64,000 nucleotides of DNA, taken from NCBI GenBank assembly GCA_964443325.1, contig CAYUCL010000004.1, positions 5,885 to 69,884 of the forward strand, read 5' to 3'. The stretch's first letter is position 1, and each line of letters opens with the position of its first letter. The translations under genes were made by a program, and so were the position numbers. Source of the DNA: an uncultured Dehalococcoidales bacterium. GTDB taxonomy: Bacteria > Chloroflexota > Dehalococcoidia > E44-bin15. Shown here piece by piece: positions 3,331-39,609 of the stretch. The notes beneath the pieces were generated by a model. It searched no databases. It was not told where the DNA came from and worked only from the letters and a program-made list of their open reading frames with translations.

Positions 3331-4248
3331 TTACTTCGGTGGTTCCGCTGGCGATGGATTTACCAGGCCTACCGCCAGTGACTGTGGGACATCCCTGCAA
3401 AGCTCGTCCACAGTCCATCTCCCGTCTTTGTGGATACTTCTGCATATTGTTGGATCAGTCATAAGACTGATCTGGCCGGAACGAACATAGAAGATATGCC
3501 CATTTATATTTGCCGCCTCGTCGGTGCACAAGAACGCCACCAAGGGCGCGATCGCTTCAGGCGCCAAGCTTGTGAGGTCATATGCTGGCGGCGGCTGTCC
3601 CGTTTCTTCTCTTTTCTTCCGAGCAGCCTCCATCTCAGGGGATACTGTCATCCTCGTGGCGGCAGCCGGGCGAATAGCGTTGCAGGTGACGCCATATCTG
3701 CCCATATCCCTAGCCACTGTCCTGGTGAACCCAGCGATACCCTCCTTGGCCGCAGCATAATTGGCTTGACCTCTATTACCGAGACCCGATGTAGAAGAGG
3801 TATTCACTATGCGGCCGCCTCTCTGCTGCCTCATGACGACACAGGCGGGTTTGGTGCAATGAAAGTGCCCATAAAGATGGACTTTCAGCACTGTGTCCCA
3901 TTCCTCTTCGGTCATGTTGAAGACCATGCGGTCTCGGAGCACACCAGCGTTGTTCACCAGAATGTCCAGCCTGCCAAAATTGTCAATGGCAGTTTTAATT
4001 ATGTTCTCTCCACCCTCCGGTGTAGTCACCGAGTCGTAGTTGGCAACGGCCTCTCCACCTGCCTTCTTAATCTCCTCTACCACCTCATCGGCTGGCCCCT
4101 TAGCTGCCCCTGTGCCATCTGGAGCGCCACCAAGGTCATTAACCACCACCTTTGCCCCCTCAGCAGCGAACAATAGCGCATGGCCCCTGCCAATACCCCG
4201 ACCTGCGCCTGTTATCACTGCGACTTTCCCTTTTAACCTATCACCCAT
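3331..4248 (-). CDS. SDR-family oxidoreductase, paralog 2
   Basis: About 75% identical to paralog 1 across its length, with the same motifs. Confidence 0.8.
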   Translation of the reverse strand: MGDRLKGKVAVITGAGRGIGRGHALLFAAEGAKVVVNDLGGAPDGTGAAKGPADEVVEEIKKAGGEAVANYDSVTTPEGGENIIKTAIDNFGRLDILVNNAGVLRDRMVFNMTEEEWDTVLKVHLYGHFHCTKPACVVMRQQRGGRIVNTSSTSGLGNRGQANYAAAKEGIAGFTRTVARDMGRYGVTCNAIRPAAATRMTVSPEMEAARKKREETGQPPPAYDLTSLAPEAIAPLVAFLCTDEAANINGHIFYVRSGQISLMTDPTICRSIHKDGRWTVDELCRDVPQSLAVGLVNPSPAEPPK

Positions 4249-4404
4249 TTTGCCTCCTTATCTATTTAGCCTCGCTAGCTCCACAACTCTGCATTATATT
4301 CTATCAATAGCTGAGGTAATGTTCCAACTGAGCGCTCACCTAACCGAGATTAGTTCCGACTTATACAGTTTGATTTACTCCCCAGCCCTGTTTAATGCAG
4401 TGTC

Positions 4405-5352
4405 CTAGAAAAGCCCTGCTTCCCTGAAGGGCGTCGATACGTCTTCTTTTGGAGGAGCTTTCTTCATCAACTCCTTGACTGCCTTATCAAGCTCCTCCGG
4501 GGTCCATCTAGCCTTCTCTTCTTTAGCTTGCACATCTACTGTGTGCCAGCCCCCAAGTAACCAAACCTTGTTCCCTACAAGCCTGAAGACATTGCCATTT
4601 ATGTCCTTGGCTTTATCGGATGCCAGGTAAACTACAAGGGGAGCCATGTTTTCTGGGTCAAGCATGTCAAACTCGCCTGGCGGTGGAGTCTTCTCCATAA
4701 ATGCCCTCATCGATGGGGTAGCATCAGTTGTCAGTCTTGTCCGTGCCACCGGGACAATGACGTTGCAGGTTACGCCGTATCTTTCCATTTCCCTGGCGAG
4801 GATATTAGTAAGGGCAGCAATTCCTGCCTTAGCTGCTCCATAATTGGTTTGACCAACATTTCCCAAGAGCCCAGCATCAGAAGTAGTGTTTATAATTCTC
4901 CCCTCATGGACCCTCTCAGCTTTGTGTTCTTCCCTCCAGTAGGCACAAGCATGCCTAGAACAGTTAAAAGTACCCTTCAGGTGAACATTTAGCACGGCAT
5001 CCCACTCCTCCTCTGCCATGTTGAAGAACATCCTATCCCGCAGGATGCCGGCGTTATTGACTAAAATGTTCAATTTGCCAAAGTTCTCGACAGCGCATTC
5101 AATAATCTTCTTTGCCGCCTGAAAATCGGTTACACTCTCGTAGTTGGCCACTGCTTCTCCACCAAAGGACTTGATCTCTGCCACTACTTCATCTGCCGGA
5201 CCCGCAGCGGCCCCCGCGCCATCAAAGCCTCCACCGAGGTCATTAACCACTACTTTAGCTCCCTCTTTTGCTAACAGTAGTGCTTCCCCTCTTCCTAATC
5301 CTCTTCCCGCTCCCGTAACAATCGCTACTTTTCCTTCCAGCAACTTTGCCAC
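4405..5352 (-). CDS. SDR-family oxidoreductase, paralog 3 (more divergent)
   Basis: TGAGRGLG, NNAG and Y..K motifs are present. It has a longer C-terminal tail than the other two. Confidence 0.8.
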   Translation of the reverse strand: MAKLLEGKVAIVTGAGRGLGRGEALLLAKEGAKVVVNDLGGGFDGAGAAAGPADEVVAEIKSFGGEAVANYESVTDFQAAKKIIECAVENFGKLNILVNNAGILRDRMFFNMAEEEWDAVLNVHLKGTFNCSRHACAYWREEHKAERVHEGRIINTTSDAGLLGNVGQTNYGAAKAGIAALTNILAREMERYGVTCNVIVPVARTRLTTDATPSMRAFMEKTPPPGEFDMLDPENMAPLVVYLASDKAKDINGNVFRLVGNKVWLLGGWHTVDVQAKEEKARWTPEELDKAVKELMKKAPPKEDVSTPFREAGLF

Positions 5353-5486
5353 CTTTATCCCCTTTCAATTAGATCCCTATTATTAATCTTCCCCACCCAA
5401 ATTAGTAATCTCCTTTTTATCACCCCCCATTTATCATCAATGAGATGAAATTGTCTCTCTATCTATTTACAGCCTGCACCTCAGGC

Positions 5487-5957
5487 TTAAGCCTTCTTCG
5501 AGGGAAGGATAACCGTGGCACTGCCTGGTGTGGTCTTTTCCCCTTTCCCATTCTCCACCCATATGTCACACTCAACAAGGTGCTGGCCATCCTCTACTTT
5601 CTTATTGGCAACCGTCCCCTTACAAAGCCATGTTTCCCCTTCTGCAGGATCTCCCATAGTCGCCATCCTTCGAGGATAGTCCATGCCTCGATACTGGCAG
5701 GCGAACTTCTTAACTCGTCCCTCGGCACCTATCCAGTCAGTCACTAGCTGGACCAGCCATGCCCTTTTGAGAGCGCCGTGGGTAATGATGCCGCCCGTCC
5801 CCTGAGTTGCAGCGAAGCTCTCATCCCAGTGAAGGGGATTAAAGTCTCCTGATGCCCCAGCCCATCTAACCGCCATCTGGGTTGTGGAGATCTTCTCCAG
5901 AGTAGGCACTTCACTGCCAACCTCCACATCTTCGTAATAAATTTGCTTTTTCGCCAT
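5487..5957 (-). CDS. MaoC-like (R)-specific enoyl-CoA hydratase, hot-dog fold
   Basis: Hot-dog hydratase motif region (GDFNPLHWDESFA...). Confidence 0.7.
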   Translation of the reverse strand: MAKKQIYYEDVEVGSEVPTLEKISTTQMAVRWAGASGDFNPLHWDESFAATQGTGGIITHGALKRAWLVQLVTDWIGAEGRVKKFACQYRGMDYPRRMATMGDPAEGETWLCKGTVANKKVEDGQHLVECDIWVENGKGEKTTPGSATVILPSKKA

Positions 5958-5967
5958 TTCTTCCCCC

Positions 5968-6447
5968 TTATCTAGCGATAATCGTTGCCCGGTTTACAGC
6001 TACTGTGTCGCCGTTCTGGTTCAAATAGGTGGTCTCTACCGTGGTAAATATCATCTTTCCCGCCTTCCCCTCCCTCTCCCTGATATCTGCGATCTTCGAG
6101 TAGGCGGTGAGGATATCACCGGCACGGATGGGAATGTAGAACTCCTGGTCCACGCCGCCATCGAGAATACGGAAGAGGCCAGCTTTTACCAGCACAGCCC
6201 CAACTATGGACATGCCTCCTATAGTTGCCCTCCCCTTGATAGGCCAACCCCAGAAACCAGGCGGGCAGATGATATCCTCATATCCAGCAGCCTTTGCATC
6301 CTCCACCTCATGGAAAAGAGGGTTTTCATCGCCCACAGCATCGGCATACCTTCTTATCGCTACCCTCCCCACCTCCATTATGACTGGTTCCGACAACGTA
6401 CCAATCATCGCCTTAATCTCATCCGTCATTATCGACTCGTCAGCCAA
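5968..6447 (-). CDS. MaoC N-terminal-like hot-dog dehydratase subunit
   Basis: Second hot-dog-fold protein (RYADAVGDENPLFH). It is adjacent to and co-oriented with the MaoC hydratase, as in split hydratase-2 systems. Confidence 0.6.
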   Translation of the reverse strand: MADESIMTDEIKAMIGTLSEPVIMEVGRVAIRRYADAVGDENPLFHEVEDAKAAGYEDIICPPGFWGWPIKGRATIGGMSIVGAVLVKAGLFRILDGGVDQEFYIPIRAGDILTAYSKIADIREREGKAGKMIFTTVETTYLNQNGDTVAVNRATIIAR

Positions 6448-6609
6448 TTCGCTACCTCCTTATTTTTTCTTTGGCTAGAGTAAATCTTACCTTCCTAAAA
6501 CACAGTAAAAAGCACCAAACAGACTCCATCCAAGCCATCGAAAGTCTACACAAACCCAATCGCCCTGTCAAGTATCTTAGGTCTGTTTTGCTTCGCTGGA
6601 CCACGACTA

Positions 6610-30780: not shown

Positions 30781-31623
30781 ATGCTGCTGAGCGCCATCAT
30801 AGCGCTACAAGCCCGCAAGGAAGCATTATTGCCCCCCTACCTGGGCAAGGCAGCACATGCGCTATTCCTTCGACTTGTGGCCACTACTGACCCCAACATG
30901 GGAGCAAAGCTACACGATGATAGTGAGGCCAAGCCCTTCACTGTGTCGGGCCTTGTGGGCCTGCCCAGGAGGAGCGCAACAATGCATATCAATGCTGGCC
31001 AGGTTTGCTTATTGCGCTTCACTAGCTATGAGGACGACCTCTCAAACCTGCTGGCGGAAAAGGTGTTGCCATCGTTGCCTCAGGAGTTTGAACTTGAGAA
31101 CGCCCTCTTTTCAGTCGAGGATGTCTTCATGCAAAGCGGCGCTCATCCCTTGAGCAGACAAACGTCATATCAGGAGTTAGCTCAAGGGCATCTGCTCGAT
31201 GCCAGAAGCGCCCCCACAAGAGTCAAACTCTTTTTCATGTCGCCTACTACATTCAGGTCGGGGGGGAAGAATATACCGTTGCCGCTTCCAGGATTGGTGT
31301 TTGGCAGCCTCGCCGACCGATGGAATGCCGTGTCGCCAATCACCATCTCCAGAGAGGTAAGACGTTACGCTGAGGAATTTGTGGCAATTTCCCAATGCCA
31401 GCTCAAAACACGTACGGTGGAAATTGCTGGAGGCAAACAGGTAGGTTTTATCGGTTCGTGCTCGTATGTCGCGCTGAGGCATGACGCATACTGGCGTAGG
31501 GTTATGAACCTGCTGGCGGAGTTCGCCTTTTACAGCGGCGTGGGCTATAAGACAACCATGGGGTTTGGCCAGACGTTCACCCACCGTTTCGCTGCAAAAC
31601 GCTCCACCTCGCAATCAAGCTGA
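30781..31623 (+). CDS. cas6: Cas6 crRNA endoribonuclease
   Basis: The C-terminal glycine-rich loop GVGYKTTMGFGQ matches the Cas6 GhGxxxxxGhG signature. 280 aa. Confidence 0.8.
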   Translation: MLLSAIIALQARKEALLPPYLGKAAHALFLRLVATTDPNMGAKLHDDSEAKPFTVSGLVGLPRRSATMHINAGQVCLLRFTSYEDDLSNLLAEKVLPSLPQEFELENALFSVEDVFMQSGAHPLSRQTSYQELAQGHLLDARSAPTRVKLFFMSPTTFRSGGKNIPLPLPGLVFGSLADRWNAVSPITISREVRRYAEEFVAISQCQLKTRTVEIAGGKQVGFIGSCSYVALRHDAYWRRVMNLLAEFAFYSGVGYKTTMGFGQTFTHRFAAKRSTSQSS

Positions 31624-31743
31624 GACTTGTTGTAACCTCACTATCAGCCCGGCAGCACAAACCACCAAGCAAATAAACCTCTAATCTTGTTAAGATATAT
31701 GAATGACATCTTCACGCTGTGCCAGGCTTGTCCCTAGAGAATT

Positions 31744-31767
31744 AGGGGCGTTCAATTGAACGCCCCT
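31744..31767. promoter_or_regulatory. Perfect 24-nt palindrome AGGGGCGTTCAATTGAACGCCCCT downstream of cas6
   Basis: Exact self-complementary sequence with no T-tract following it. It could be a transcript-end hairpin or a dimeric protein binding site. Confidence 0.4.
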
Positions 31768-32168
31768 ACAAACGCCACAGGTTTCAGAGAGAGTCAAGAG
31801 GGTCCCACACGCGCCACGTGTCATTGCGAGGAGCGGCAGCGACGAAGCAATCTGAGCGACGTATTACTAATAGATGAGCTTGCTTCGATGCCACTTGGTC
31901 CCTGTCCGCCTTGCGGATTCCGATACCCCGTTCGTCCTGAGCCTGTCGAAGGGTTTCCCTTCTAGCACAGATCAAGGTGTGTCCCTATAAGCACATCCCA
32001 GAGTGGGTGAAAAAAAATAACAAGTACGCTGCGAAGCAGATATCATAGGGATGGGGTAAGGTTTCATAAACGAGTACAGCCACTTGCCAATGTTGGTCGA
32101 AAGTGGTAGCATTTTGGTACCGCAAAATGGTGCATATAGCTTAGATTTCGCCACATTGTTGTCGTCAG

Positions 32169-32243
32169 GGGCTCGTAGCTCAGCGGCAGAGCGATCGGCT
32201 CATAACCGATTGGTCGTAGGTTCGAATCCTGCCGAGCCCACCA
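32169..32243 (+). tRNA. tRNA-Met (CAT), elongator-type (could alternatively be tRNA-Ile2)
   Basis: Acceptor GGGCTCG/CGAGCCC, anticodon loop CTCATAA, T-loop GGTTCGAATCC, CCA encoded. It lacks the initiator hallmarks. Confidence 0.8.
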
Positions 32244-32252
32244 CGAAATGGT

Positions 32253-32290
32253 CCCCCCTGACTTACAAGGGGGATTTTTTGTTTTTGTTG
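32253..32290 (+). terminator. Rho-independent terminator after tRNA-Met
   Basis: A CCCCCT...AGGGGG hairpin followed by TTTTTTGTTTTTG. Confidence 0.75.
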
Positions 32291-32572
32291 ACAACCATAG
32301 TTGCTTCATGATATATTCCTGAACGACTGATAAGCTCTCTTGTAGTTTTCCGTGAAGAGCTTCTTTACTCGTGGTCAGGTCATTTCGGCCAGACCCCATT
32401 ATTTTGGCGTGAAAGTGCGCCTCGGGGTCTGGCCTGTTCTTATCTACGATTGTGCTTGATTGCGCTTTATTTTTGCAGTAGCAATAGATTGAACAATATG
32501 GTAGTTTATGGTATAGTTTGGTATGAACATATTATATGACTATCGATTCATACAATGCAATAAGGGGGAGCG

Positions 32573-32827
32573 ATGACCAGAACTGTTAAAGTAACTCTGA
32601 GCTTACCACATGGATTACTTCGCTTTGCTGATGGATTGGCTGCCAGGGAAAAGGTTAGTCGCAGCAAATTCATAGCTGGTGTTCTACAGAAGCTGGCTGA
32701 CAATGAAGAGGAACGTCTAATGGCAGAAGGCTATCTGGCTATGGCAAACGAAAACCAGGAATTTGCCGAGACTGTTGTGCCATTGGTTGATGAAGTATTA
32801 TCGGATTGGAAGCGAAATGGCCATTAG
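32573..32827 (+). CDS. Ribbon-helix-helix (CopG/MazE-like) antitoxin
   Basis: 84-aa N-terminal RHH (TVKVTLSLPHGLLRFADGLAAREKVSRSKFI). The gene overlaps the mazF start. Confidence 0.65.
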   Translation: MTRTVKVTLSLPHGLLRFADGLAAREKVSRSKFIAGVLQKLADNEEERLMAEGYLAMANENQEFAETVVPLVDEVLSDWKRNGH

Positions 32828-33158
32828 CCGTGGTGAGATATACTGGGTAAACTGGAATCCGGGAAGGGGTAGAGAGCAGGTCGGCATACGACCTGCTCTC
32901 GTTATTCAGAACGATACAGGCAATCAATACAGTCCGACGACCATCGTTGCTGCTATTACTACAGCCCCAGTCAAGGCATATCCATTTATCGTGCCCATTA
33001 CAGCCTCTGAAAGCGGATTGCCGCAGGACAGCAGTGTGAATCTCTCTACCATATTGACTGTCTCGAGAGATAGACTGAAAGATAAGTGTAGTGAGCTCAG
33101 TGCCCAAAAGATGGCCGAAGTGAATGATGCGATCAACAAGAGCCTGGCACTGGATTGA
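32820..33158 (+). CDS. mazF: MazF/PemK-family endoribonuclease toxin
   Basis: RGEIYWVNWNPGRGREQVGIRPALVIQND...TIVAAITT fits the PemK/MazF fold. The ATG at 32820 overlaps the antitoxin by 8 nt; the tracked ORF begins 57 nt earlier. Confidence 0.8.
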   Translation, partial: AISRGEIYWVNWNPGRGREQVGIRPALVIQNDTGNQYSPTTIVAAITTAPVKAYPFIVPITASESGLPQDSSVNLSTILTVSRDRLKDKCSELSAQKMAEVNDAINKSLALD

Positions 33159-33250
33159 AACAAACGTAGTGTCGAGGTTTCGCTCGTTCGTGGTAGCAAT
33201 ATAGATATAAAGCCTGTCTGACTCTGCACACAAGGAGATAACAGCCCCTT

Positions 33251-33385
33251 GATCCGTGAGTCCGGATTCAAAAGAGTCGTATGTTAGTTGGTTTTTTCTG
33301 AGGCGTGAAGGTCCTTCTGTGAAGGATTCCTTCACCAAAGCTGAGGGAGAGGACTCCCTCAGTCCTCAAGAAGAATCCACGGATT
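33251..33385 (+). repeat. Dispersed ~130-bp structured repeat element, copy A (MITE-like or small RNA)
   Basis: About 90% identical to 41830–41960. Internal hairpins GTGAAGG..CCTTCAC and GAGGGAG..CTCCCTC, with short inverted termini (GATCCGTG … CACGGATT). Confidence 0.7.
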
Positions 33386-33473
33386 AAGGAGCCAATCAAG
33401 TATCGATAAGAGCGTTGTGTATGCTATAATACTGGTGTATCACGATGGAAGGGGGGACTATGGGTATTGAATC

Positions 33474-33800
33474 CTATAGTTGCCCCTTCTGCTTTTCAAA
33501 CTTCCATCGATCATAGTATATGAACATGATATTACATCTAGCAGCCTTCCTTAACAAATGAGAACAACTATCCTGTCGGCACGCTATAACCAATTTGAAT
33601 ATATCCACACTGCGCAAATAATCCACTAAACATGCTATATCTCCATCGCCTGTTATGACTACAGCCTTATGGTTATTGTTAATAATTATCATTGCGTGTA
33701 GAACTATCTCGGCATCACAATTCCCCTTGATTTTTCCGTCAAGCAATGGGAGCACAGTCTTGTAGACTAGAGTGTACTCATAATCTTTTATGTCACTCAA
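33474..33800 (-). CDS. NYN-domain (LabA-like) protein, probably a truncated fragment
   Basis: GNCDAEIVLHAMII...AVVITGDGDIACLVDYL matches the C-terminal half of NYN/LabA domains. It lies in an AT-rich region, and 108 aa is short for the family. Confidence 0.5.
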   Translation of the reverse strand: MSDIKDYEYTLVYKTVLPLLDGKIKGNCDAEIVLHAMIIINNNHKAVVITGDGDIACLVDYLRSVDIFKLVIACRQDSCSHLLRKAARCNIMFIYYDRWKFEKQKGQL

Positions 33801-33900
33801 ATAATATTGTCAACATTTCAAATTGATCCACTACCGGATTTTTGTTGTTGTTATTGACAGTCCCCCTACCCTAAATTAGAATGAGGTAAGACGGTGAAAG

Positions 33901-34602
33901 GTGAGCAAAGGAAGACAGCTATACGAGCTTCAAGAGGTTGACCTGGAGATAGAGGCGAAGCAGGAAGCTCTGTCTAACGTGCAGAGCCGATTAGGCCAGA
34001 GCCAGGCTCTTGATGAGGCTCGCGCTAATCTTGCTACACAGAAGAACTGCGTTTATGAGCTAAATGCAAGCCAGCGAGCTGGGGAGTGGGAGGTGGAGGA
34101 CCTGCGAACGAAGGTAGCCGATATAGAGCAGAAGCTTTATGGTGGCGCGCTGAAAAACCCCAAAGAGCTGGCAAGTCTTCAGGAGCAGGCGGAACATCTT
34201 AAAAAAAGACGTAGGGAAGAGGAAGATAAAGTACTTGACATAATGACTGAATTAGAGGCGGCACAGGCGAAATTAGCGATGATAAGCCAGGAGGTAGAAA
34301 GTTTTGAGAAAAGCTGGAAGGAGGAGCAGACCGAGCTTTCCAGGGAGCAGGATAGGTTGAGCACTAATTTAGCTAACCTTGAGCAGAAGCGAAAAGACCT
34401 CGGCTCAAGGATCGATGCAGCGAGCCTGAGGCTTTATGAAGAACTAAGGACAAAGAAACAGGGCAGGGCAGTGGCCAAGGTTGAACAGGGCATGTGTCAG
34501 GGATGCAGAATTGTCCTCCCGGTGAGAGAGTTACAGCGAGCAAGAGCAAGTCAAGAATTGGTGCAGTGTGGTAGTTGTGAGAGGATTCTTTTCGTGAGCT
34601 AG
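33901..34602 (+). CDS. COG1579-type coiled-coil protein with C-terminal C4 zinc ribbon
   Basis: Long coiled-coil region followed by CQGCRIVLP...CGSCERIL. Confidence 0.7.
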   Translation: MSKGRQLYELQEVDLEIEAKQEALSNVQSRLGQSQALDEARANLATQKNCVYELNASQRAGEWEVEDLRTKVADIEQKLYGGALKNPKELASLQEQAEHLKKRRREEEDKVLDIMTELEAAQAKLAMISQEVESFEKSWKEEQTELSREQDRLSTNLANLEQKRKDLGSRIDAASLRLYEELRTKKQGRAVAKVEQGMCQGCRIVLPVRELQRARASQELVQCGSCERILFVS

Positions 34603-34605
34603 GCG

Positions 34606-36018
34606 ATGAGAACGATTGGCTATTTTCGAGTAACCGAAGAGACTGGAAGGTCCCCCTCACTGGTGGAGCAGCAGGAGGGTTTTGCCCGCTTTTGCCAGGA
34701 ACGGGGTTACCAGCCGGTAATGACATTTGTTGATACGGGCTCAACAGGGAAAGTTGGCCGAACTCAGTATCAGCGCATGCTCAGCTACATCCGGAGGGAT
34801 GGAACGGACACTGTAGTTGTGGTGAAAAGTCTTAGCCACCTTCACCCCGACGTGCAGGAATTGATGTATCGCCTTATTGAAATTGATGCCCTCGGGGCAA
34901 AGGTTCTCTCAATCGATGAAGAGCTTGCCAGCCCCTTGGAAACGGTTATCCAGATTTGGTCTACCCGGCGCCAGAGTGGAATAAGAGGGGATGCTGTGAG
35001 GGAGGCGATGAAGCTCAGGGCAGTCAGAGGAAAAGGATTGGGCAAGCCACCCTATGGCTATAAGCTGGGTGCCGACAAGAGGCTGGAGATCGTCCCTGAG
35101 GAGGCAGCCAATGTAGAACTCATCTATCAGCTTTATGTTCAAAAAAACATGGGCGTGCGCCTCATCGCTCGATACCTGAATGAGCAGGGCATCACCACCA
35201 GAAGAGGTGGCCTGTGGAGCATCGTTGGCATCCGAGATATCCTGCGCAATCGGGCATATCTGGGGACATCCTCCCGTTTCGGCTTCAGGGTTCCTGACAG
35301 CCACCGACCGATAATCAATCATGAAACCTTCAACAAAGTGCAGGAACGACTTACCGCCAAGACAAAGCCAAGGGGTCGCGTCCAAAGGTCGCCCTTCCCT
35401 CTATCAGGTCTGGCTTACTGTGGATACTGTGGCAACAGGATGACCGGCGTGAACCGCAGTCAAACCTGGACAACGCTCAAGAAGGGAGGGAAGAGGAAGG
35501 GGGAGTATCGCTACTACCAGTGCCAGTCGAGAACTAATCAAAGCGTTTGCCAATACCATACAAGGAGAGCTGAAGATTTAGAGGGCTTTGTGCTCGGTAC
35601 ACTACGGAGTTATAACAACCTTGAGGCTCTGGTACAATTGACGAAGGTGCGTGATTTCAGTGACGAACCGTCAGAGCACACGCGGCTAGAGAGAAAGCTG
35701 AAGACTCTGGATCGAAAATTCCGAGATCATCTCAACCAGGCGACCGATGGTGCCATCCCCTTGGAAGAATTCCGTGTTGTGAGTGGGGATTTGATTTGGG
35801 AGAGGCGGCTTTTGGAGGAAAGGATCGCCCTTCTTAAAGCTGAAGCAAAGCAGGAGATAACCTCCGAGCACCGGAAGGATTATATGTTGGAGAAGCTAGA
35901 AGAGCTTCAAGAGCGATGGGACACCATGACCTCACCGGCAAGAAAAGCGTTGCTTCAGCATATAATCGAACGCATTGTTGTCTACGACGACCATGTGGAA
36001 ACTATCCTCAGGCTGTGA
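34606..36018 (+). CDS. Large serine recombinase homolog with substituted catalytic residues (probable pseudo-recombinase)
   Basis: Resolvase-like N-domain (GYFRVTEETG) followed by a recombinase domain (GKPPYGYKL) and a zinc ribbon (CGYCGNRM...CQSR). The nucleophile Ser is replaced by Thr, and the DRLGR motif is replaced by SLSHLHP. Confidence 0.6.
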   Translation: MRTIGYFRVTEETGRSPSLVEQQEGFARFCQERGYQPVMTFVDTGSTGKVGRTQYQRMLSYIRRDGTDTVVVVKSLSHLHPDVQELMYRLIEIDALGAKVLSIDEELASPLETVIQIWSTRRQSGIRGDAVREAMKLRAVRGKGLGKPPYGYKLGADKRLEIVPEEAANVELIYQLYVQKNMGVRLIARYLNEQGITTRRGGLWSIVGIRDILRNRAYLGTSSRFGFRVPDSHRPIINHETFNKVQERLTAKTKPRGRVQRSPFPLSGLAYCGYCGNRMTGVNRSQTWTTLKKGGKRKGEYRYYQCQSRTNQSVCQYHTRRAEDLEGFVLGTLRSYNNLEALVQLTKVRDFSDEPSEHTRLERKLKTLDRKFRDHLNQATDGAIPLEEFRVVSGDLIWERRLLEERIALLKAEAKQEITSEHRKDYMLEKLEELQERWDTMTSPARKALLQHIIERIVVYDDHVETILRL

Positions 36019-36025
36019 TTAGCCT

Positions 36026-36430
36026 ATGGCAAAACGCATAACCATCTATACCGACGGCGCTGCTCAGCCCAACCCAGGGCCTGCCGGCGTAGGCATCGTC
36101 ATCCTGAATGAATCAGGAGCGGTTATATTCGAGGCCTCGCATAGTATTGGCTACGCCACAAACAACCAGGCAGAATATAAAGCTGTCATCAAAGGTCTCG
36201 AGGAAGCAGCAAGGCTACGCGCAGAGCATATTGAGGTCAGGTCTGACTCAGAGCTTCTGGTGAAGCAGATCAAAGGCGAATACCGAGTAAAGAATCCGGG
36301 GCTGAAGCCCCTATTTCAGCAAATCCACCAGCTAATTATAGCATTTCCGTCTTTTTCTATCGTCCACATCCCCAGGGAGCAGAACAGAGCAGCGGACGCA
36401 TTAAGCCGCAAGGCATTGAGACGCAGTTAA
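36026..36430 (+). CDS. rnhA: Ribonuclease HI
   Basis: TDGAAQPNPGPAG, NNQAEYKAV and SDSELLV motifs, with catalytic D/E/D residues present. 134 aa. Confidence 0.85.
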   Translation: MAKRITIYTDGAAQPNPGPAGVGIVILNESGAVIFEASHSIGYATNNQAEYKAVIKGLEEAARLRAEHIEVRSDSELLVKQIKGEYRVKNPGLKPLFQQIHQLIIAFPSFSIVHIPREQNRAADALSRKALRRS

Positions 36431-36458
36431 TTGATTTGGCGTCGGTTTTATTGTAAAC

Positions 36459-36846
36459 TGAAGGTGGCCAGGTAAACCGGGTGACCGCTCCCCGATTATC
36501 GGGGGGAGGAAAGTCCGAGCTCCACCGGGCAGGAGGCTGGGTAACTCCCAGGCCCCGATAACGTGAGTTATCGGGGACGGAAAGTGCCACAGAAACACAC
36601 CGGTCGCCTTAGGCGACTAAGGGTGAAATGGCGAGGTAAGAGCTCACCGCCCCGGTGGTGACACCGGGGGCAGGGCAAACCCCCTCCGGAGCAAGACCAA
36701 ATAGCGGGGAAGAGGACGCCCGGCCTCGTTACAACCCCCGGGTGGGTCGCTTGACCCTGATGGTAACATCAGGGCTAGATAGATGGTCACCGCCCCAACA
36801 CTGTTGGGGTACAGAACTCGGCTTATAGGTTTGCTTGGCCGGCTCT
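36459..36846 (+). ncRNA. rnpB: RNase P RNA (bacterial type A)
   Basis: Conserved blocks GGAAAGTCCGAGCTCCACCGGGCAGG, AGTGCCACAGAAA, GGTAAGAGCTCACC, AGGGTGAAATGG and ACAGAACTCGGCTTA. P1 pairing GGCCAGG…CTTGGCC. Confidence 0.9.
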
Positions 36847-36856
36847 TATATATACA

Positions 36857-37645
36857 ATGGCGCATCAGATGTATTCAACTTACCCAATCGACGACCTCAG
36901 GACGAGATTCATCGGCCAGAAGACCCTCTACTATCCGGTTACCTCCTCCACTATGGATGTAGCAAAACAGGCGATAAGAGATGGTGCAAGAGAGGGTACC
37001 ATCATCATTGCAGACTACCAAACCTCCGGCCGAGGGCGTCTAGGCCGCAAGTGGATTACCTCTCCAGATGACAGTATTTTGCTCTCCATTATCCTCTACC
37101 CAGAGATGGAAGATCTCCGCCTGCTCAACATGGTCGCTGCTCTTGCTGTTGCCCAGAGCATTGAGAAGCTTACCGACCTCAAGCCGATTCTTAAATGGCC
37201 CAACGACGTCCTTATCGAGGGGAAAAAGGTAAGTGGTGCCCTGATTGAGAGCGATGTCCAGGGAGAACAAGCCAATTCCGCCATCGTGGGCATCGGGTTA
37301 AATGTCAATCTCGATCCATCATCGATGCCCGAGATTTCAGAAACCGCTACCAGCCTTAAGGAGATGCTTGGGCGGGATGTTTCCCGCCTGAATATACTCG
37401 AGTCCTTGCTTTGCGAATTCGAAGAGCTATGTCAGGCATTGCGCCACGGTGAGCCTATCCACAAGGAATGGCAACGGCGACTGGATACCATAGGCAGAGA
37501 GGTTTCGGTAAAACAGGGTAATGAGGTTTTGGAGGGCTATGCTGAATCGGTCGATAAGGATGGGAACCTGCTTCTGCGGTGCCCTGACGGCACCCTAGCA
37601 ACGATTATAGCCGGGGATGTCACGCTCAAAGCGAAGAGCTATTAG
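36857..37645 (+). CDS. birA: Biotin—[acetyl-CoA-carboxylase] ligase (group I, no HTH)
   Basis: GRGRLGRKW, KWPNDVL..GKKVSGAL motifs. Confidence 0.85.
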   Translation: MAHQMYSTYPIDDLRTRFIGQKTLYYPVTSSTMDVAKQAIRDGAREGTIIIADYQTSGRGRLGRKWITSPDDSILLSIILYPEMEDLRLLNMVAALAVAQSIEKLTDLKPILKWPNDVLIEGKKVSGALIESDVQGEQANSAIVGIGLNVNLDPSSMPEISETATSLKEMLGRDVSRLNILESLLCEFEELCQALRHGEPIHKEWQRRLDTIGREVSVKQGNEVLEGYAESVDKDGNLLLRCPDGTLATIIAGDVTLKAKSY

Positions 37646-39609
37646 GCTAGAAGACCTGCGCCCTCCAATTTCTTAGCAATCTCGCCAAGATTTAATTTTT
37701 CCAGTTTAGCCTTTGTTTGAAAACCAGTGGCTATATCCCAACCCCGGATTTGGTAATACTCATCTTTCATCTTTTCAAACTGGTCCCGTTCAACAACCAT
37801 CCCCTTTCTGGATAGAACCTCGCCATCCTTGCCAGGAACTATGCAATTCGGGTTGCCATAATCGCCTTTCAACGGGACGGTGAAATTGAACTCCTCTAGA
37901 GAATCATGCTCCCTTCCTTCGTGTCCTTCCCTGGCGAGGATGGCCCGCTGCAGATTCAAGACCCTCTCCCCAATTTCATATAGACCCTCCTCACCCACAT
38001 CCTTTCCCGTTACTGCCGCCAAAACCTGGCTCTCTAGAGAAGGGTCACCGACGTGGTCCGCAGATAGCGTGCTATGAATAATAGGCCAGTAGAAATCACA
38101 CAGAATGAGGCATTCCTTAGCGTACTGGCGGTCCTGAATCTTGGCTGCGGCCAGGGCCTTTCCTTCATATGTGGAGAAGTCTGCTGCTATTTCACTCCCC
38201 CAGAATTGTTTACCTATTGCCCGCATAACCTCAGATGTAACGTAGATATTCTCCATCCCCAAGGTCCCCACAGCCCAAAACATAACCAGCGCACTTATCT
38301 CGTGAAGCTGCTGAATGGGCAATCTTGGCTCCATCGCGTAGAAAAGGCCAGTGGTAATATATAACCTGGGCCCATAGATGGCATTGGAGTCATTTCTAGT
38401 AATATAATCTGTAAGCAACGCCTGGCCCTTGCTGCCGAGGGTTTCGGCAGCTTTATGGGTGCCTTCAGCTAGCACATCCCCAAATCCATCACGGTGAGCT
38501 ACTTTCCACAGAAATGTTTCGATAAATTCCTTGCTCCCCAGCTTAGAGAGAGGAATACCGGTTTGCTCATCAGTTAAGAGCTTTGCCTGGTAGCACCTGG
38601 AGAGCCACATGATCATGGTCTCAACGGCACGGGTATCGACTCCATATTCATCGCAGAGTTTGTTGGCTTCAAAGGGAACCTCGTTTATTTCGCCGTAATA
38701 GCGTTGCGCCCGGGCTTGATAGACCAAGCCAGCCTGACACATGAATTTCCCCGTGATCCCACTCATCGCGGTATAGTTTGCTCGCATACAGCCGCTGATG
38801 CAGCCGTAACATATATCTTTCTTGAGTTTATCTGGATCCACCACTGTGGGTATTATAGCTGAGTATAATTCAGGTCTGTCCTTTGCTTCTCGACGCAGCC
38901 GTTTCCTCAGATTTGTAACTCTCTCCGCATCAGCCACCTCAACCCTTCTTTTGCTTCCTCTAACCGCGATGGCCTTTAAATTCTTGGAGCCCATCACAGC
39001 TCCCAATCCACCCGAGCCAGTGGCATCATTATCGGCTAAAACAGTGGCAAAGGTCACCATATTTTCACCGGCTGGGCCCACAGCCACCACCCGCACTGAT
39101 TTGCCCAACTCGTCCTTGAGTCTCTCACGGCACGAAATAGCGCCTTGGCCAACAAGATGAGTTGCCTCCCTTATTTCTACACGATCATCATTGACCCACA
39201 GGTAGACTGGCTTATCCGCCTTCCCATAAACAACCATGCCATCATAACCAGCGAATTTAAGCTCAGCACCCCAAGAACCGCCCAGGTTGCAATAGGAGAA
39301 TTGGTTGTTAATGGGGGATTTTCCATAAACTTGCCATCGAGAACCAGCGAAACCGGGAACGCCACCAAGGGGACCCGTTATGAAAATGAGTCTATTCTCT
39401 GGATCGAATGCTGTAATACCTGGGGGAACCTCATCCCAATAGATCTTTGCCGCTACCCCCCTTCCCCCGAGAAATAGCTCTTCATAACCAGCGGTGGGTA
39501 CTTTGTTGACATCCCCGGTCGAAAGATTCACGTATAAGATATTTCCGGCATATCCTACAAAATGGGTCATTGCCCCCCTAATTCGCTTGGGCTGCTCGCC
39601 CATGTCCAA
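37642..39609 (-). CDS. Aldehyde:ferredoxin oxidoreductase family (tungstopterin)
   Basis: AOR N-terminal domain and a 655-aa length. Conserved Cys-containing regions are present. Confidence 0.8.
   Translation of the reverse strand: MDMGEQPKRIRGAMTHFVGYAGNILYVNLSTGDVNKVPTAGYEELFLGGRGVAAKIYWDEVPPGITAFDPENRLIFITGPLGGVPGFAGSRWQVYGKSPINNQFSYCNLGGSWGAELKFAGYDGMVVYGKADKPVYLWVNDDRVEIREATHLVGQGAISCRERLKDELGKSVRVVAVGPAGENMVTFATVLADNDATGSGGLGAVMGSKNLKAIAVRGSKRRVEVADAERVTNLRKRLRREAKDRPELYSAIIPTVVDPDKLKKDICYGCISGCMRANYTAMSGITGKFMCQAGLVYQARAQRYYGEINEVPFEANKLCDEYGVDTRAVETMIMWLSRCYQAKLLTDEQTGIPLSKLGSKEFIETFLWKVAHRDGFGDVLAEGTHKAAETLGSKGQALLTDYITRNDSNAIYGPRLYITTGLFYAMEPRLPIQQLHEISALVMFWAVGTLGMENIYVTSEVMRAIGKQFWGSEIAADFSTYEGKALAAAKIQDRQYAKECLILCDFYWPIIHSTLSADHVGDPSLESQVLAAVTGKDVGEEGLYEIGERVLNLQRAILAREGHEGREHDSLEEFNFTVPLKGDYGNPNCIVPGKDGEVLSRKGMVVERDQFEKMKDEYYQIRGWDIATGFQTKAKLEKLNLGEIAKKLEGAGLLA

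What the first reader, a model, noticed from the sequence alone, without database searches (positions are those of the whole stretch)
34606..36018. Large serine recombinase homolog with all key catalytic residues substituted, wedged between COG1579 and rnhA/rnpB
Its domain order (resolvase-like N-domain, recombinase domain, Zn ribbon, coiled coil) matches large serine recombinases. However, the nucleophilic Ser of the YxRVS motif is Thr (GYFRVTEETG), and the LDRLGRS arginine motif is SLSHLHP. This suggests a domesticated, non-catalytic recombinase. It is tightly packed (4-nt and 8-nt gaps) between a COG1579 zinc-ribbon protein and RNase HI, a gene pair that is otherwise commonly adjacent, and next to RNase P RNA.
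Basis: partly seen in the sequence, partly recalled or inferred. Interest (0 to 1): 0.7.

Follow-up and report, generated by a model that had tools for sequence, protein, structure and literature searches.

The report
Inactive recombinase kept as host gene
This gene has the full build of a phage-type DNA-integrating enzyme but lacks the residues needed to cut DNA, and a whole bacterial lineage (Chloroflexota, mostly Dehalococcoidia) keeps it locked next to an RNA-polymerase-associated zinc-ribbon gene and the RNase P RNA gene, so it appears to have been repurposed as a DNA-binding host protein.

Summary
ORF 34606-36018 (+, 470 aa) has the full large-serine-recombinase (LSR) architecture: resolvase-fold N-domain, recombinase domain, four-Cys zinc ribbon and coiled-coil hairpin. 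The nucleophile Ser is Thr10, and D67/R68/R71 (gamma-delta resolvase numbering) are S77/H78/P81. Y6, R8, D36 and R45 equivalents are kept, so "all key residues substituted" is overstated.

This is not a one-off. None of 116 homologs, and none of the top 91 cluster representatives, combines Ser10 with R68 and R71. The nucleophile column is hypervariable, while the DNA-binding domains are strongly conserved. dN/dS is 0.05-0.45 in every domain.

In 79 of 80 Chloroflexota species representatives a COG1579/CT398-type gene abuts it upstream. RNase H follows in 62 of 77 and rnpB in 55 of 66. Outer flanks differ, no att repeats bracket it, and no relative was found in viral contigs. In a neighbour-joining tree (no bootstrap) the inactive proteins form one clade apart from the nearest active LSRs.

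It is most likely a domesticated, non-catalytic DNA-binding protein that works with its COG1579 partner, which the literature links to RNA polymerase. That function is inferred. I found no published description of the family.

The parts
33854..33882 (+). Sigma-70-type promoter-like site (TTGACA-17-TAGAAT, 11 of 12) upstream of the COG1579 gene. It is the likely operon promoter.
   Evidence: The same TTGACA...TAGAAT element is conserved upstream of the COG1579 gene in L006, L008, L011, L014-L026. No + strand terminator-like site lies between it and rnpB.
33901..34602 (+). COG1579/CT398-family gene (233 aa): coiled-coil hairpin plus a C4 zinc ribbon (CxxC at 199/202 and 223/226). It is the obligate upstream partner.
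   Evidence: Pfam CT398_CC 1e-15 and Zn_ribbon_9 2.4e-07, both above cut-off. Cys positions. Directly upstream on the same strand in 79 of 80 loci, and also in the divergent loci L085-L087.
34606..36018 (+). Catalytically inactive large-serine-recombinase homolog (470 aa). This is the finding itself.
34606..34938 (+). Resolvase-fold N-domain (aa 1-111) with a degenerate active site: T10 (34633-34635) in place of the nucleophile Ser, and S77/H78/P81 (34834-34848) in place of D67/R68/R71.
   Evidence: The beta-alpha-beta fold is predicted confidently and superposes on the TP901-1 catalytic domain with TMt 0.70-0.72. dN/dS is 0.15-0.28.
35095..35355 (+). Recombinase (DNA-binding) domain, aa 164-250. 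It is the most conserved part of the family.
   Evidence: Pfam PF07508 at 7.6e-19. Mean column entropy 0.98 against 1.92 for the N-domain. dN/dS 0.05-0.19. Aligns to the DNA-bound A118 integrase structure 4kis.
35398..35607 (+). Zinc-ribbon domain, aa 265-334, with invariant C272, C275, C306 and C315.
   Evidence: Pfam PF13408 at 9.9e-14. Invariant columns. Codons.
35665..35847 (+). Predicted coiled-coil hairpin, aa 354-414, the equivalent of the LSR CC motif.
   Evidence: AlphaFold2 helices H354-380 and H386-414 with block pLDDT of about 87-92. This is the most variable region (entropy 2.12, dN/dS 0.21-0.45).
36026..36430 (+). RNase HI gene (134 aa) with D10, E50, D74 and D124 present. A frequent but dispensable downstream member of the cluster.
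   Evidence: Pfam RVT_3 1e-29 and RNase_H 5e-14. NCBIfam hits to RNase HI models. Residues. Directly downstream in 62 of 77 loci and absent in L085-L087 and L002.
36469..36841 (+). RNase P RNA gene (rnpB, bacterial class A). A conserved downstream neighbour on the same strand.
   Evidence: Rfam RF00010, 291 bits, full length. Downstream on the same strand in 55 of 66 loci, median 517 nt after the recombinase-like stop codon. Only 20-103 nt after the stop in L085-L087, which lack rnhA.
32169..32243 (+). tRNA-Met(CAT). In the closer relatives it lies within about 90 nt of the COG1579 gene. Here a 1.5 kb island separates them.

Best explanation
The ORF encodes a full-length large serine recombinase (LSR) that lost its chemistry and was kept as a host protein.

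Shown:
- It cannot perform serine-recombinase strand cleavage. The nucleophile Ser and the two motif arginines (R68, R71) are missing in this protein, and no family member has all three.
- It is nonetheless a maintained, vertically inherited gene with a single apparent origin in Chloroflexota, mainly Dehalococcoidia.
- It abuts or slightly overlaps the upstream COG1579/CT398-type gene, which suggests translational coupling.
- It lies in one gene cluster with rnhA (usually) and rnpB.
- Its recombinase and zinc-ribbon DNA-binding domains are the most constrained parts. The resolvase-fold N-domain, the long alpha-E helix and the coiled-coil hairpin are preserved.

Inferred: it works as a sequence-specific DNA-binding protein, probably dimeric and possibly DNA-bridging, that acts together with the COG1579 protein in a stoichiometric complex.

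Further inferred: COG1579-family proteins are reported to associate with RNA polymerase and sigma factors. The pair would therefore be a transcription regulator or adaptor, with the inactive recombinase supplying DNA-site recognition and the COG1579 protein supplying the polymerase contact. The likely origin is an LSR-bearing element that integrated between COG1579 and rnhA/rnpB, after which only the integrase gene survived.
For: Inactivity:
- T10, S77, H78 and P81 occupy the S10, D67, R68 and R71 positions.
- In 116 homologs the nucleophile column reads T23, gap 14, E10, A10, G8, L8, S7, D7. The R68 column is mostly His and the R71 column mostly Pro. None has S10 together with R68 and R71.
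- 15 of 116 have no Ser anywhere in the loop, so a shifted nucleophile is excluded.
- In the exhaustive representative search, ranks 1-91 are all inactive. Canonical Y.RVS...LDRFGR proteins first appear at rank 92, at about 170 bits and 30% identity.

Maintained gene:
- dN/dS is 0.05-0.45 in every domain.
- 79 of 80 relatives have an ORF of at least 450 aa.
- GC content is 0.52 against 0.51 for the window.

Architecture kept:
- Pfam domains.
- AlphaFold2 mean pLDDT 81.4.
- Foldseek top hits are SPbeta, Bxb1, phiC31 and A118 integrases at E down to 2e-21.
- The Zn-ribbon cysteines are invariant and the recombinase domain is highly conserved.

Host operon, not a mobile element:
- A COG1579 gene is adjacent upstream in 79 of 80 loci, with junctions mostly 0-4 nt.
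- The same pair occurs in the divergent subgroup L085-L087.
- rnhA follows in 62 of 77 loci and rnpB in 55 of 66.
- Outer flanks differ among Mb-scale contigs.
- No flanking repeats and no relative found in the viral contig scan.
- A neighbour-joining tree gives 79 inactive against 19 active proteins as a clean split.

Partner biology, from the literature:
- MSMEG_4306 was recovered in an RNA polymerase beta-subunit pull-down and cross-links to DNA (PMC7092591).
- ML1638 and CT398 are predicted to dock on RNA polymerase beta-prime and reach the sigma-factor site (bioRxiv 10.64898/2026.07.15.738315).
- FlgZ protects sigma-54 from turnover (PMC3372290).
Against: - DNA binding, the interaction with the COG1579 protein and any regulatory effect are all untested here.
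- I found no conserved operator-like element. No non-coding k-mer is shared across the family, and the window has no recurrent palindromes of att half-site size.
- The recurrent neighbours (tRNA-Met, RNase HI, RNase P RNA) are all RNA-related, which fits an RNA-centred role about as well.
- The RNA polymerase link of COG1579 rests on one affinity-purification/cross-linking study and on structure predictions in Actinobacteria and Chlamydia, not in Chloroflexota.
- The single-origin tree has a short separating branch (0.019) and no bootstrap support.
Confidence: 0.6

Rival explanations
1. RNA-centred role. The inactive recombinase and the COG1579 protein belong to an RNA-processing or RNA:DNA-hybrid module with RNase HI and RNase P RNA. 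They might recognise R-loops or nascent stable-RNA transcripts, or assist rnpB expression or maturation, and would not be general DNA-site-specific regulators.
For: - The conserved neighbours are tRNA-Met, RNase HI and rnpB.
- rnpB stays immediately downstream (20-103 nt) even in the divergent subgroup that has lost rnhA.
- No + strand terminator lies between the operon promoter and rnpB, so co-transcription is possible.
- The COG1579 homolog HP0958 has been proposed as an RNA chaperone for flaA mRNA (PMC3372290).
Against: - The best-conserved domains are the ones that bind duplex DNA in solved LSR-DNA complexes.
- No RNA-binding domain was detected.
- rnhA is dispensable for the pairing, and some loci lack both rnhA and rnpB nearby (L002).
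- COG1579 is linked to rnhA and rnpB in phyla where no recombinase-like gene was reported as a neighbour, so that linkage may belong to COG1579 alone (PMC3372290, PMC8469502).
Confidence: 0.2
2. Decoy against mobile elements. The inactive recombinase binds att-like sites, or forms mixed inactive oligomers with incoming active LSRs. This would block integration or excision of mobile elements.
For: - The dimerisation helix and the coiled-coil motif, which mediate subunit contacts in LSRs, are retained.
- The region just upstream, between tRNA-Met and COG1579, varies among relatives and holds an inserted MazEF island here.
Against: - The gene's context is housekeeping, not a defence island, and is fixed across the lineage.
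- The nearest active LSRs are only about 30% identical, which makes mixed oligomers unlikely.
- The window has no other serine-recombinase gene.
- The segment at the same spot in L012 carries ordinary metabolic genes.
- The obligate pairing with COG1579 is left unexplained.
Confidence: 0.07
3. It is still an active recombinase that uses unconventional chemistry, with Thr10 as the nucleophile.
For: - Thr carries a hydroxyl group.
- The equivalents of Y6, R8 and D36 are retained.
Against: - Position 10 is Thr in only 23 of 116 homologs and is often Ala, Gly, Leu, Glu or a gap.
- R68 and R71 are replaced family-wide.
- No att sites flank the gene and its genomic position is fixed.
Confidence: 0.02
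4. It is a decaying remnant (pseudogene) of an integrated element, with no function.
For: The active-site residues are lost.
Against: - The ORF is full-length in 79 of 80 species representatives.
- dN/dS is well below 1 in all domains.
- 54 columns are invariant across sequences only 40-79% identical to this one.
- The synteny and the tight gene junctions with the upstream partner are conserved.
Confidence: 0.02

Closest known systems
Large serine recombinases / serine integrases (SPbeta SprA, Bxb1 Int, phiC31 Int, A118/LI Int, TP901-1 Int)
   Same: The domain order and fold match over the whole length: resolvase-type N-domain with a long alpha-E helix, recombinase domain, four-Cys zinc ribbon and an inserted coiled-coil hairpin.
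   Different: - No nucleophile Ser and no R68/R71 equivalents.
- Not associated with a phage or mobile element, and no att sites.
- Fixed chromosomal position in a housekeeping operon.
- Only 14-24% identity to the solved LSR structures.
CcrB, CcrA and XisF (best NCBIfam models)
   Same: These are the best-scoring curated LSR models, with E-values of 5e-24 to 6e-20 spanning most of the protein.
   Different: Scores of 72-85 bits are far below the curated cut-offs of 375-900 bits. It belongs to none of these equivalog families.
Small serine recombinases that also act as repressors (gamma-delta/Tn3 resolvase binding res to repress tnpA/tnpR). This comparison is from my own knowledge.
   Same: It gives a precedent for a serine-recombinase scaffold acting as a site-specific DNA-binding regulator.
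   Different: Those enzymes remain catalytically active and are encoded on transposons. This protein is inactive, host-encoded and built on the large (LSR) architecture.
Nuclease-dead, domesticated mobile-element proteins reused as regulators (for example TnpB-derived TldR repressors). This comparison is from my own knowledge and is an analogy only.
   Same: The evolutionary logic is the same: loss of catalysis, retention of nucleic-acid targeting, and fixation next to a host gene.
   Different: The protein family is unrelated and uses RNA-guided targeting. There is no homology.
COG1579 / DUF164 / CT398-CdsZ / HP0958-FlgZ / MSMEG_4306 neighbourhoods
   Same: The partner gene is a member of this family. 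Its reported neighbours in other phyla include rnhA, tRNA-Met and RNase P RNA (PMC3372290), and it shares NIF3 operons with RNase HI (PMC8469502).
   Different: None of those descriptions mentions a recombinase-like gene. The insertion of an inactive LSR directly after COG1579 appears specific to Chloroflexota.

Membership tests
Large serine recombinase (LSR) family | N-terminal resolvase-fold (catalytic) domain | tested here: met
   Pfam PF00239 at 1.2e-15, above cut-off. The predicted beta-alpha-beta fold superposes on TP901-1 3bvp with TMt 0.70-0.72.
Large serine recombinase (LSR) family | Nucleophilic Ser in the Y-x-R-V-S motif | tested here: not met
   The position is Thr10 here. The column is hypervariable across 116 homologs, with Ser in only 7.
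Large serine recombinase (LSR) family | Active-site arginines R8, R68 and R71 and Asp D67 (gamma-delta resolvase numbering) | tested here: not met
   R8 is kept, but D67, R68 and R71 are S77, H78 and P81. No family member has S10 with R68 and R71.
Large serine recombinase (LSR) family | Recombinase (RD) DNA-binding domain | tested here: met
   PF07508 at 7.6e-19. Aligns to the A118 integrase-DNA complex structure.
Large serine recombinase (LSR) family | Zinc-ribbon domain with four Cys and an embedded coiled-coil motif | tested here: met
   PF13408 at 9.9e-14. C272, C275, C306 and C315 are invariant. The hairpin H354-380/H386-414 is predicted.
Large serine recombinase (LSR) family | Encoded at the edge of a mobile element or rearranging segment bounded by att sites | tested here: not met
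   No flanking repeats. Same operon slot in 79 of 80 species with unrelated outer flanks. No relative found in the viral contig scan.
Large serine recombinase (LSR) family | Catalyses site-specific recombination | not testable with these tools
   This needs an in vitro or in vivo recombination assay. The sequence evidence predicts no activity.
NCBIfam equivalogs CcrB / CcrA / CcrC / XisF | Score at or above the curated cut-off | tested here: not met
   Scores of 67-85 bits against cut-offs of 375-900 bits.
COG1579 / CT398 (DUF164) family, for the upstream partner gene 33901-34602 | Coiled-coil hairpin followed by a CxxC-x(18-26)-CxxC zinc ribbon | tested here: met
   PF24481 at 58.5 bits (cut-off 27) and PF02591 at 31.1 bits (cut-off 29.1). 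C199/C202 and C223/C226 are present.
Bacterial RNase P RNA class A, for the downstream neighbour 36469-36841 | Rfam RF00010 gathering score with a full-length model match | tested here: met
   291 bits against a gathering score of 100, model positions 1-367 of 367.

The most novel reading that the evidence does not exclude
The inactive recombinase is the DNA-recognition subunit of a two-protein transcription factor whose other subunit, the COG1579 coiled-coil/zinc-ribbon protein, clamps onto RNA polymerase. That would make it a new class of polymerase-tethered regulator or DNA-bridging factor built from an integrase scaffold. It might control stable-RNA genes such as rnpB, and it would give the first concrete molecular handle on the widespread and, in M. 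tuberculosis, essential COG1579 family.
Probability: 0.25. Interest if true: 0.8.

Novelty: new variant of a known kind. Interest (0 to 1): 0.66.

Why it matters
Large serine recombinases are known as enzymes of phages and mobile elements and are widely used as genome-engineering tools. A lineage-wide, vertically inherited, catalytically inactive LSR fixed in a housekeeping operon would be a clear bacterial case of an integrase turned into a host DNA-binding protein.

It would also bear on the COG1579/CT398/Rv2229c family, whose molecular function is unresolved. An obligate partner with well-understood DNA-binding domains suggests what that family does and gives a tractable experiment.

There is a practical point as well. 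Public annotation calls these proteins "site-specific DNA recombinase" or "DNA invertase Pin-like". That miscounts mobile elements in Dehalococcoidia genomes and pollutes LSR-mining pipelines.

Tried and rejected
1. Shifted nucleophile. I checked every loop column between R8 and V20. No column has a conserved Ser, and 15 of 116 sequences have none at all. Rejected.

2. att sites around the gene. The repeat finder on 31500-38500 gave only short, chance-level repeats, none bracketing the gene. Rejected.

3. A conserved operator in cis. An 11-mer survey of non-coding DNA in 80 loci found only clade-specific elements: the tRNA-Met gene, a T-rich element upstream of the promoter, and a TATAAT-type promoter. 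A palindrome scan of the whole window found only an rnpB-internal helix and one unrelated site. No candidate binding site emerged.

4. Direct check of COG1579-rnhA adjacency in other phyla. The last homolog search returned only Dehalococcoidia relatives at 61% identity or more. I had to rely on the literature.

5. Literature searches for a prior description of inactive or domesticated serine recombinases, or of this Chloroflexota family. Nothing relevant in the held library.

6. Naming the nearest active LSR clade through cluster members. No organism names were available.

7. Integration hot spot. I checked whether the variable segment between tRNA-Met and COG1579 in L012 holds mobile genes. 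It holds a methyltransferase and SnoaL, rubrerythrin and Rieske proteins, so it is not obviously mobile.

8. Co-folding the recombinase-like protein with the COG1579 protein.
Full report
**1. Observation**

- Pfam finds Resolvase (aa 4-111), Recombinase (164-250) and Zn_ribbon_recom (265-334), all above their gathering scores.
- An AlphaFold2 model built from a 32-sequence alignment is confident (mean pLDDT 81.4). It shows a beta-alpha-beta N-domain with a long alpha-E helix, a helical recombinase domain, a beta-rich zinc ribbon and a helical hairpin at H354-380/H386-414.
- Its best matches among solved structures are full-length large serine integrases: SPbeta, Bxb1, phiC31 and A118, with E down to 2e-21. 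The N-domain superposes on the TP901-1 catalytic domain at TMt about 0.7.

The neighbours are as described.

- A COG1579/CT398-type gene lies at 33901-34602 (CT398_CC plus Zn_ribbon_9).
- An RNase H gene lies at 36026-36430.
- RNase P RNA lies at 36469-36841.

**2. Catalytic residues**

I aligned the protein with gamma-delta resolvase and the TP901-1 integrase N-domain. HMMER alignments to solved structures are and MAFFT alignments.

- YFRVT falls on the Y-x-R-V-S motif, so the nucleophile Ser is Thr10 (codon ACC, 34633-34635).
- KSLSHLHP falls on K-x-L-D-R-L-G-R, so D67, R68 and R71 are S77, H78 and P81 (34834-34848).
- The equivalents of Y6, R8, D36 and R45 are retained.

**3. The loss is a family property**

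A homolog search returned more than 1200 relatives. The best 120 are about 470 aa and 40-89% identical, and those that carry a name are from Chloroflexota/Dehalococcoidia.

- Across 116 full-length members the nucleophile column reads T23, gap 14, E10, A10, G8, L8, S7, D7.
- The R68 column is mostly His and the R71 column mostly Pro.
- No sequence combines S10, R68 and R71.
- No neighbouring loop column carries a conserved Ser, and 15 members have no Ser in the loop at all. That excludes a shifted nucleophile.
- The recombinase and zinc-ribbon domains are the most conserved parts (column entropy about 1.0, against 1.9 for the N-domain), and all four zinc-ribbon cysteines are invariant.

**4. 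The gene is maintained**

- Pairwise dN/dS against orthologs at 64-90% identity is 0.05-0.45 in every domain, and 0.15-0.28 in the inactive N-domain.
- The ORF is full-length in 79 of 80 species representatives.
- GC content matches the window (0.52 against 0.51).

**5. Family boundary and origin**

An exhaustive HMMER search of 1.84 billion cluster representatives found 27,885 hits at E ≤ 1e-3 but only 178 at E ≤ 1e-30.

- Ranks 1-91 all lack the Ser/Arg/Arg set.
- Canonical Y.RVS...LDRFGR recombinases first appear at rank 92, at about 170 bits and 30% identity.
- A second inactive subgroup is interleaved there, with an IPDS.HLA.D motif and an N-domain that Pfam no longer recognises. It is also Chloroflexota wherever a name is given.
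- A neighbour-joining tree of 98 full-length sequences separates 79 inactive from 19 active proteins without mixing. This fits a single loss of activity. The separating branch is short and I did not bootstrap it.

**6. Genomic context**

On three Mb-scale contigs carrying 42-51% identical homologs, the COG1579 gene directly precedes the recombinase-like gene while the outer flanks are unrelated. A scan of GTDB species representatives found 568 candidate loci. The best 80 are all Chloroflexota.

- 79 of 80 have the COG1579 gene immediately upstream on the same strand.
- 62 of 77 have RNase H directly downstream.
- 55 of 66 have rnpB downstream on the same strand, at a median of 517 nt.
- The COG1579-to-recombinase junction is 0-4 nt in most loci, which is consistent with translational coupling.
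- In the divergent subgroup (L085-L087) rnhA is absent. The COG1579/recombinase pair persists, and rnpB follows 20-103 nt after the stop codon.

The deep core is therefore COG1579, the inactive recombinase and rnpB. No att-like repeats bracket the gene. The family-specific peptide patterns found no relative in 2.9 million viral contigs. The window holds no other serine-recombinase gene.

**7. Operon features**

A strong sigma-70-like promoter (TTGACA-17-TAGAAT, 33854-33882) precedes the COG1579 gene. No + strand terminator-like site occurs before rnpB. The promoter is conserved in the closer relatives.

**8. What it most likely does**

Shown: the protein lacks the nucleophile and two active-site arginines that define the serine-recombinase motif, so recombination chemistry is not expected. 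It keeps the LSR DNA-binding and oligomerisation architecture under selection, and it is genetically locked to a COG1579 protein.

Inferred: it is a site-specific DNA-binding protein, possibly one that bridges DNA, and it acts in complex with the COG1579 protein.

The literature connects the COG1579 family to the transcription machinery.

- MSMEG_4306 was recovered in an RNA polymerase beta-subunit pull-down and cross-links to DNA (PMC7092591).
- ML1638 and CT398 are predicted to bind RNA polymerase beta-prime, with the coiled-coil tip at the sigma-factor site (bioRxiv 10.64898/2026.07.15.738315).
- FlgZ protects sigma-54 from turnover (PMC3372290).
- Rv2229c is reported as essential (PMC5947703).

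The same family is reported next to rnhA, tRNA-Met and RNase P RNA in other phyla (PMC3372290). It shares NIF3 operons with RNase HI (PMC8469502, Table 3). Neither paper mentions a recombinase-like gene.

My preferred model is a two-part regulator in which the former integrase supplies DNA-site recognition and the COG1579 protein supplies the polymerase contact. The likely history is an LSR element that integrated between COG1579 and rnhA/rnpB and left only its integrase gene.

The main rival is an RNA or R-loop-centred role tied to RNase HI and RNase P RNA. I could not find a conserved operator, so the target remains unknown.

**9. Comparison and novelty**

By fold and domain order this is an LSR. 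It fails three defining tests: the nucleophile, the arginine motif and mobile-element context. It also scores far below the curated cut-offs of the nearest named families, CcrB and XisF.

Public sources annotate it as an ordinary recombinase or invertase. Three literature searches found no description of it.

I rate it a new variant of a known kind: a lineage-wide, domesticated, non-catalytic large serine recombinase.

**10. Verdict**

The inactivity, conservation and synteny are well established. The function is inferred. Interest: 0.66.

Noticed in passing
window 32272-33859: A small island sits between tRNA-Met and the COG1579 gene. Relatives L006 and L008 go from tRNA-Met to the COG1579 start in about 90 nt. 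Here a 22-24 nt segment (GGATTTTT(T)GTT..GTTGACA) occurs twice, at 32272-32293 and 33836-33859. The two copies flank a roughly 1.54 kb low-GC insert (0.44 against 0.51 for the window) that carries a MazE-like gene (32573-32827), a MazF/PemK gene (32763-33158) and an NYN-domain fragment (33474-33800, - strand). The duplicated segment ends at the -35 hexamer of the operon promoter, and the left copy forms a new promoter-like site with island sequence (32288-32317). The island contains no integrase.
   Followed up: partly
L012 913-3296 and L023 449-3182: Two relatives also have tRNA-Met 2.2-2.7 kb upstream of COG1579 instead of about 90 nt. In L012 the intervening genes are ordinary: a methyltransferase and SnoaL, rubrerythrin and Rieske proteins. 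The spot is variable but not clearly a mobile-element hot spot.
   Followed up: partly
window 34600-34608: The COG1579 ORF and the recombinase-like ORF are in the same reading frame, separated only by TAG GCG. Stop-codon read-through would produce a fusion protein. The 3-nt gap recurs in 24 of 75 loci, but other loci have 0, 1, 2 or 4 nt gaps or overlaps, so the shared frame is not conserved.
   Followed up: partly
L085, L086, L087; proteins P0218, P0312, P0199, P0365-P0376: A second, more degenerate inactive subgroup exists in Chloroflexota. Pfam no longer detects the Resolvase domain. Some members are 536-547 aa long, rnhA is absent, and rnpB lies 20-103 nt after the stop codon.
   Followed up: partly
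window 34606-34960 (aa 1-118 of the ORF): The inactive N-domain has family-specific invariant or near-invariant residues that are not part of the serine-recombinase catalytic set: G5, F7, F26, C30, G34, F41, G97 and W118. This hints that the domain has acquired a new constrained surface.
   Followed up: no
L002 (same contig as L041), 4245-6464: Some genomes keep the COG1579/recombinase pair but have neither rnhA nor rnpB within 5 kb downstream, where two cyclase genes sit instead. The pair is therefore the tightest linkage.
   Followed up: no
window 36857-37645: A BirA-like biotin-protein ligase gene starts 16 nt after rnpB. A BirA-like gene lies downstream on the same strand in 31 of 80 relatives, so it is a looser member of the neighbourhood.
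   Followed up: no
window 30781-31623: A Cas6 endoribonuclease gene (CRISPR_Cas6 and Cas6_N domains) lies about 550 nt upstream of tRNA-Met. I did not examine whether a CRISPR array or other cas genes are adjacent.
   Followed up: no
window 36431-36468: The 38-nt spacer between rnhA and rnpB contains a weak promoter-like element, TTGATT-17-TAAACT preceded by TG, which I read by eye from the sequence printed. At 8 of 12 matches it falls below the scan threshold. rnpB may therefore have its own promoter as well as possible read-through from the operon.
   Followed up: no
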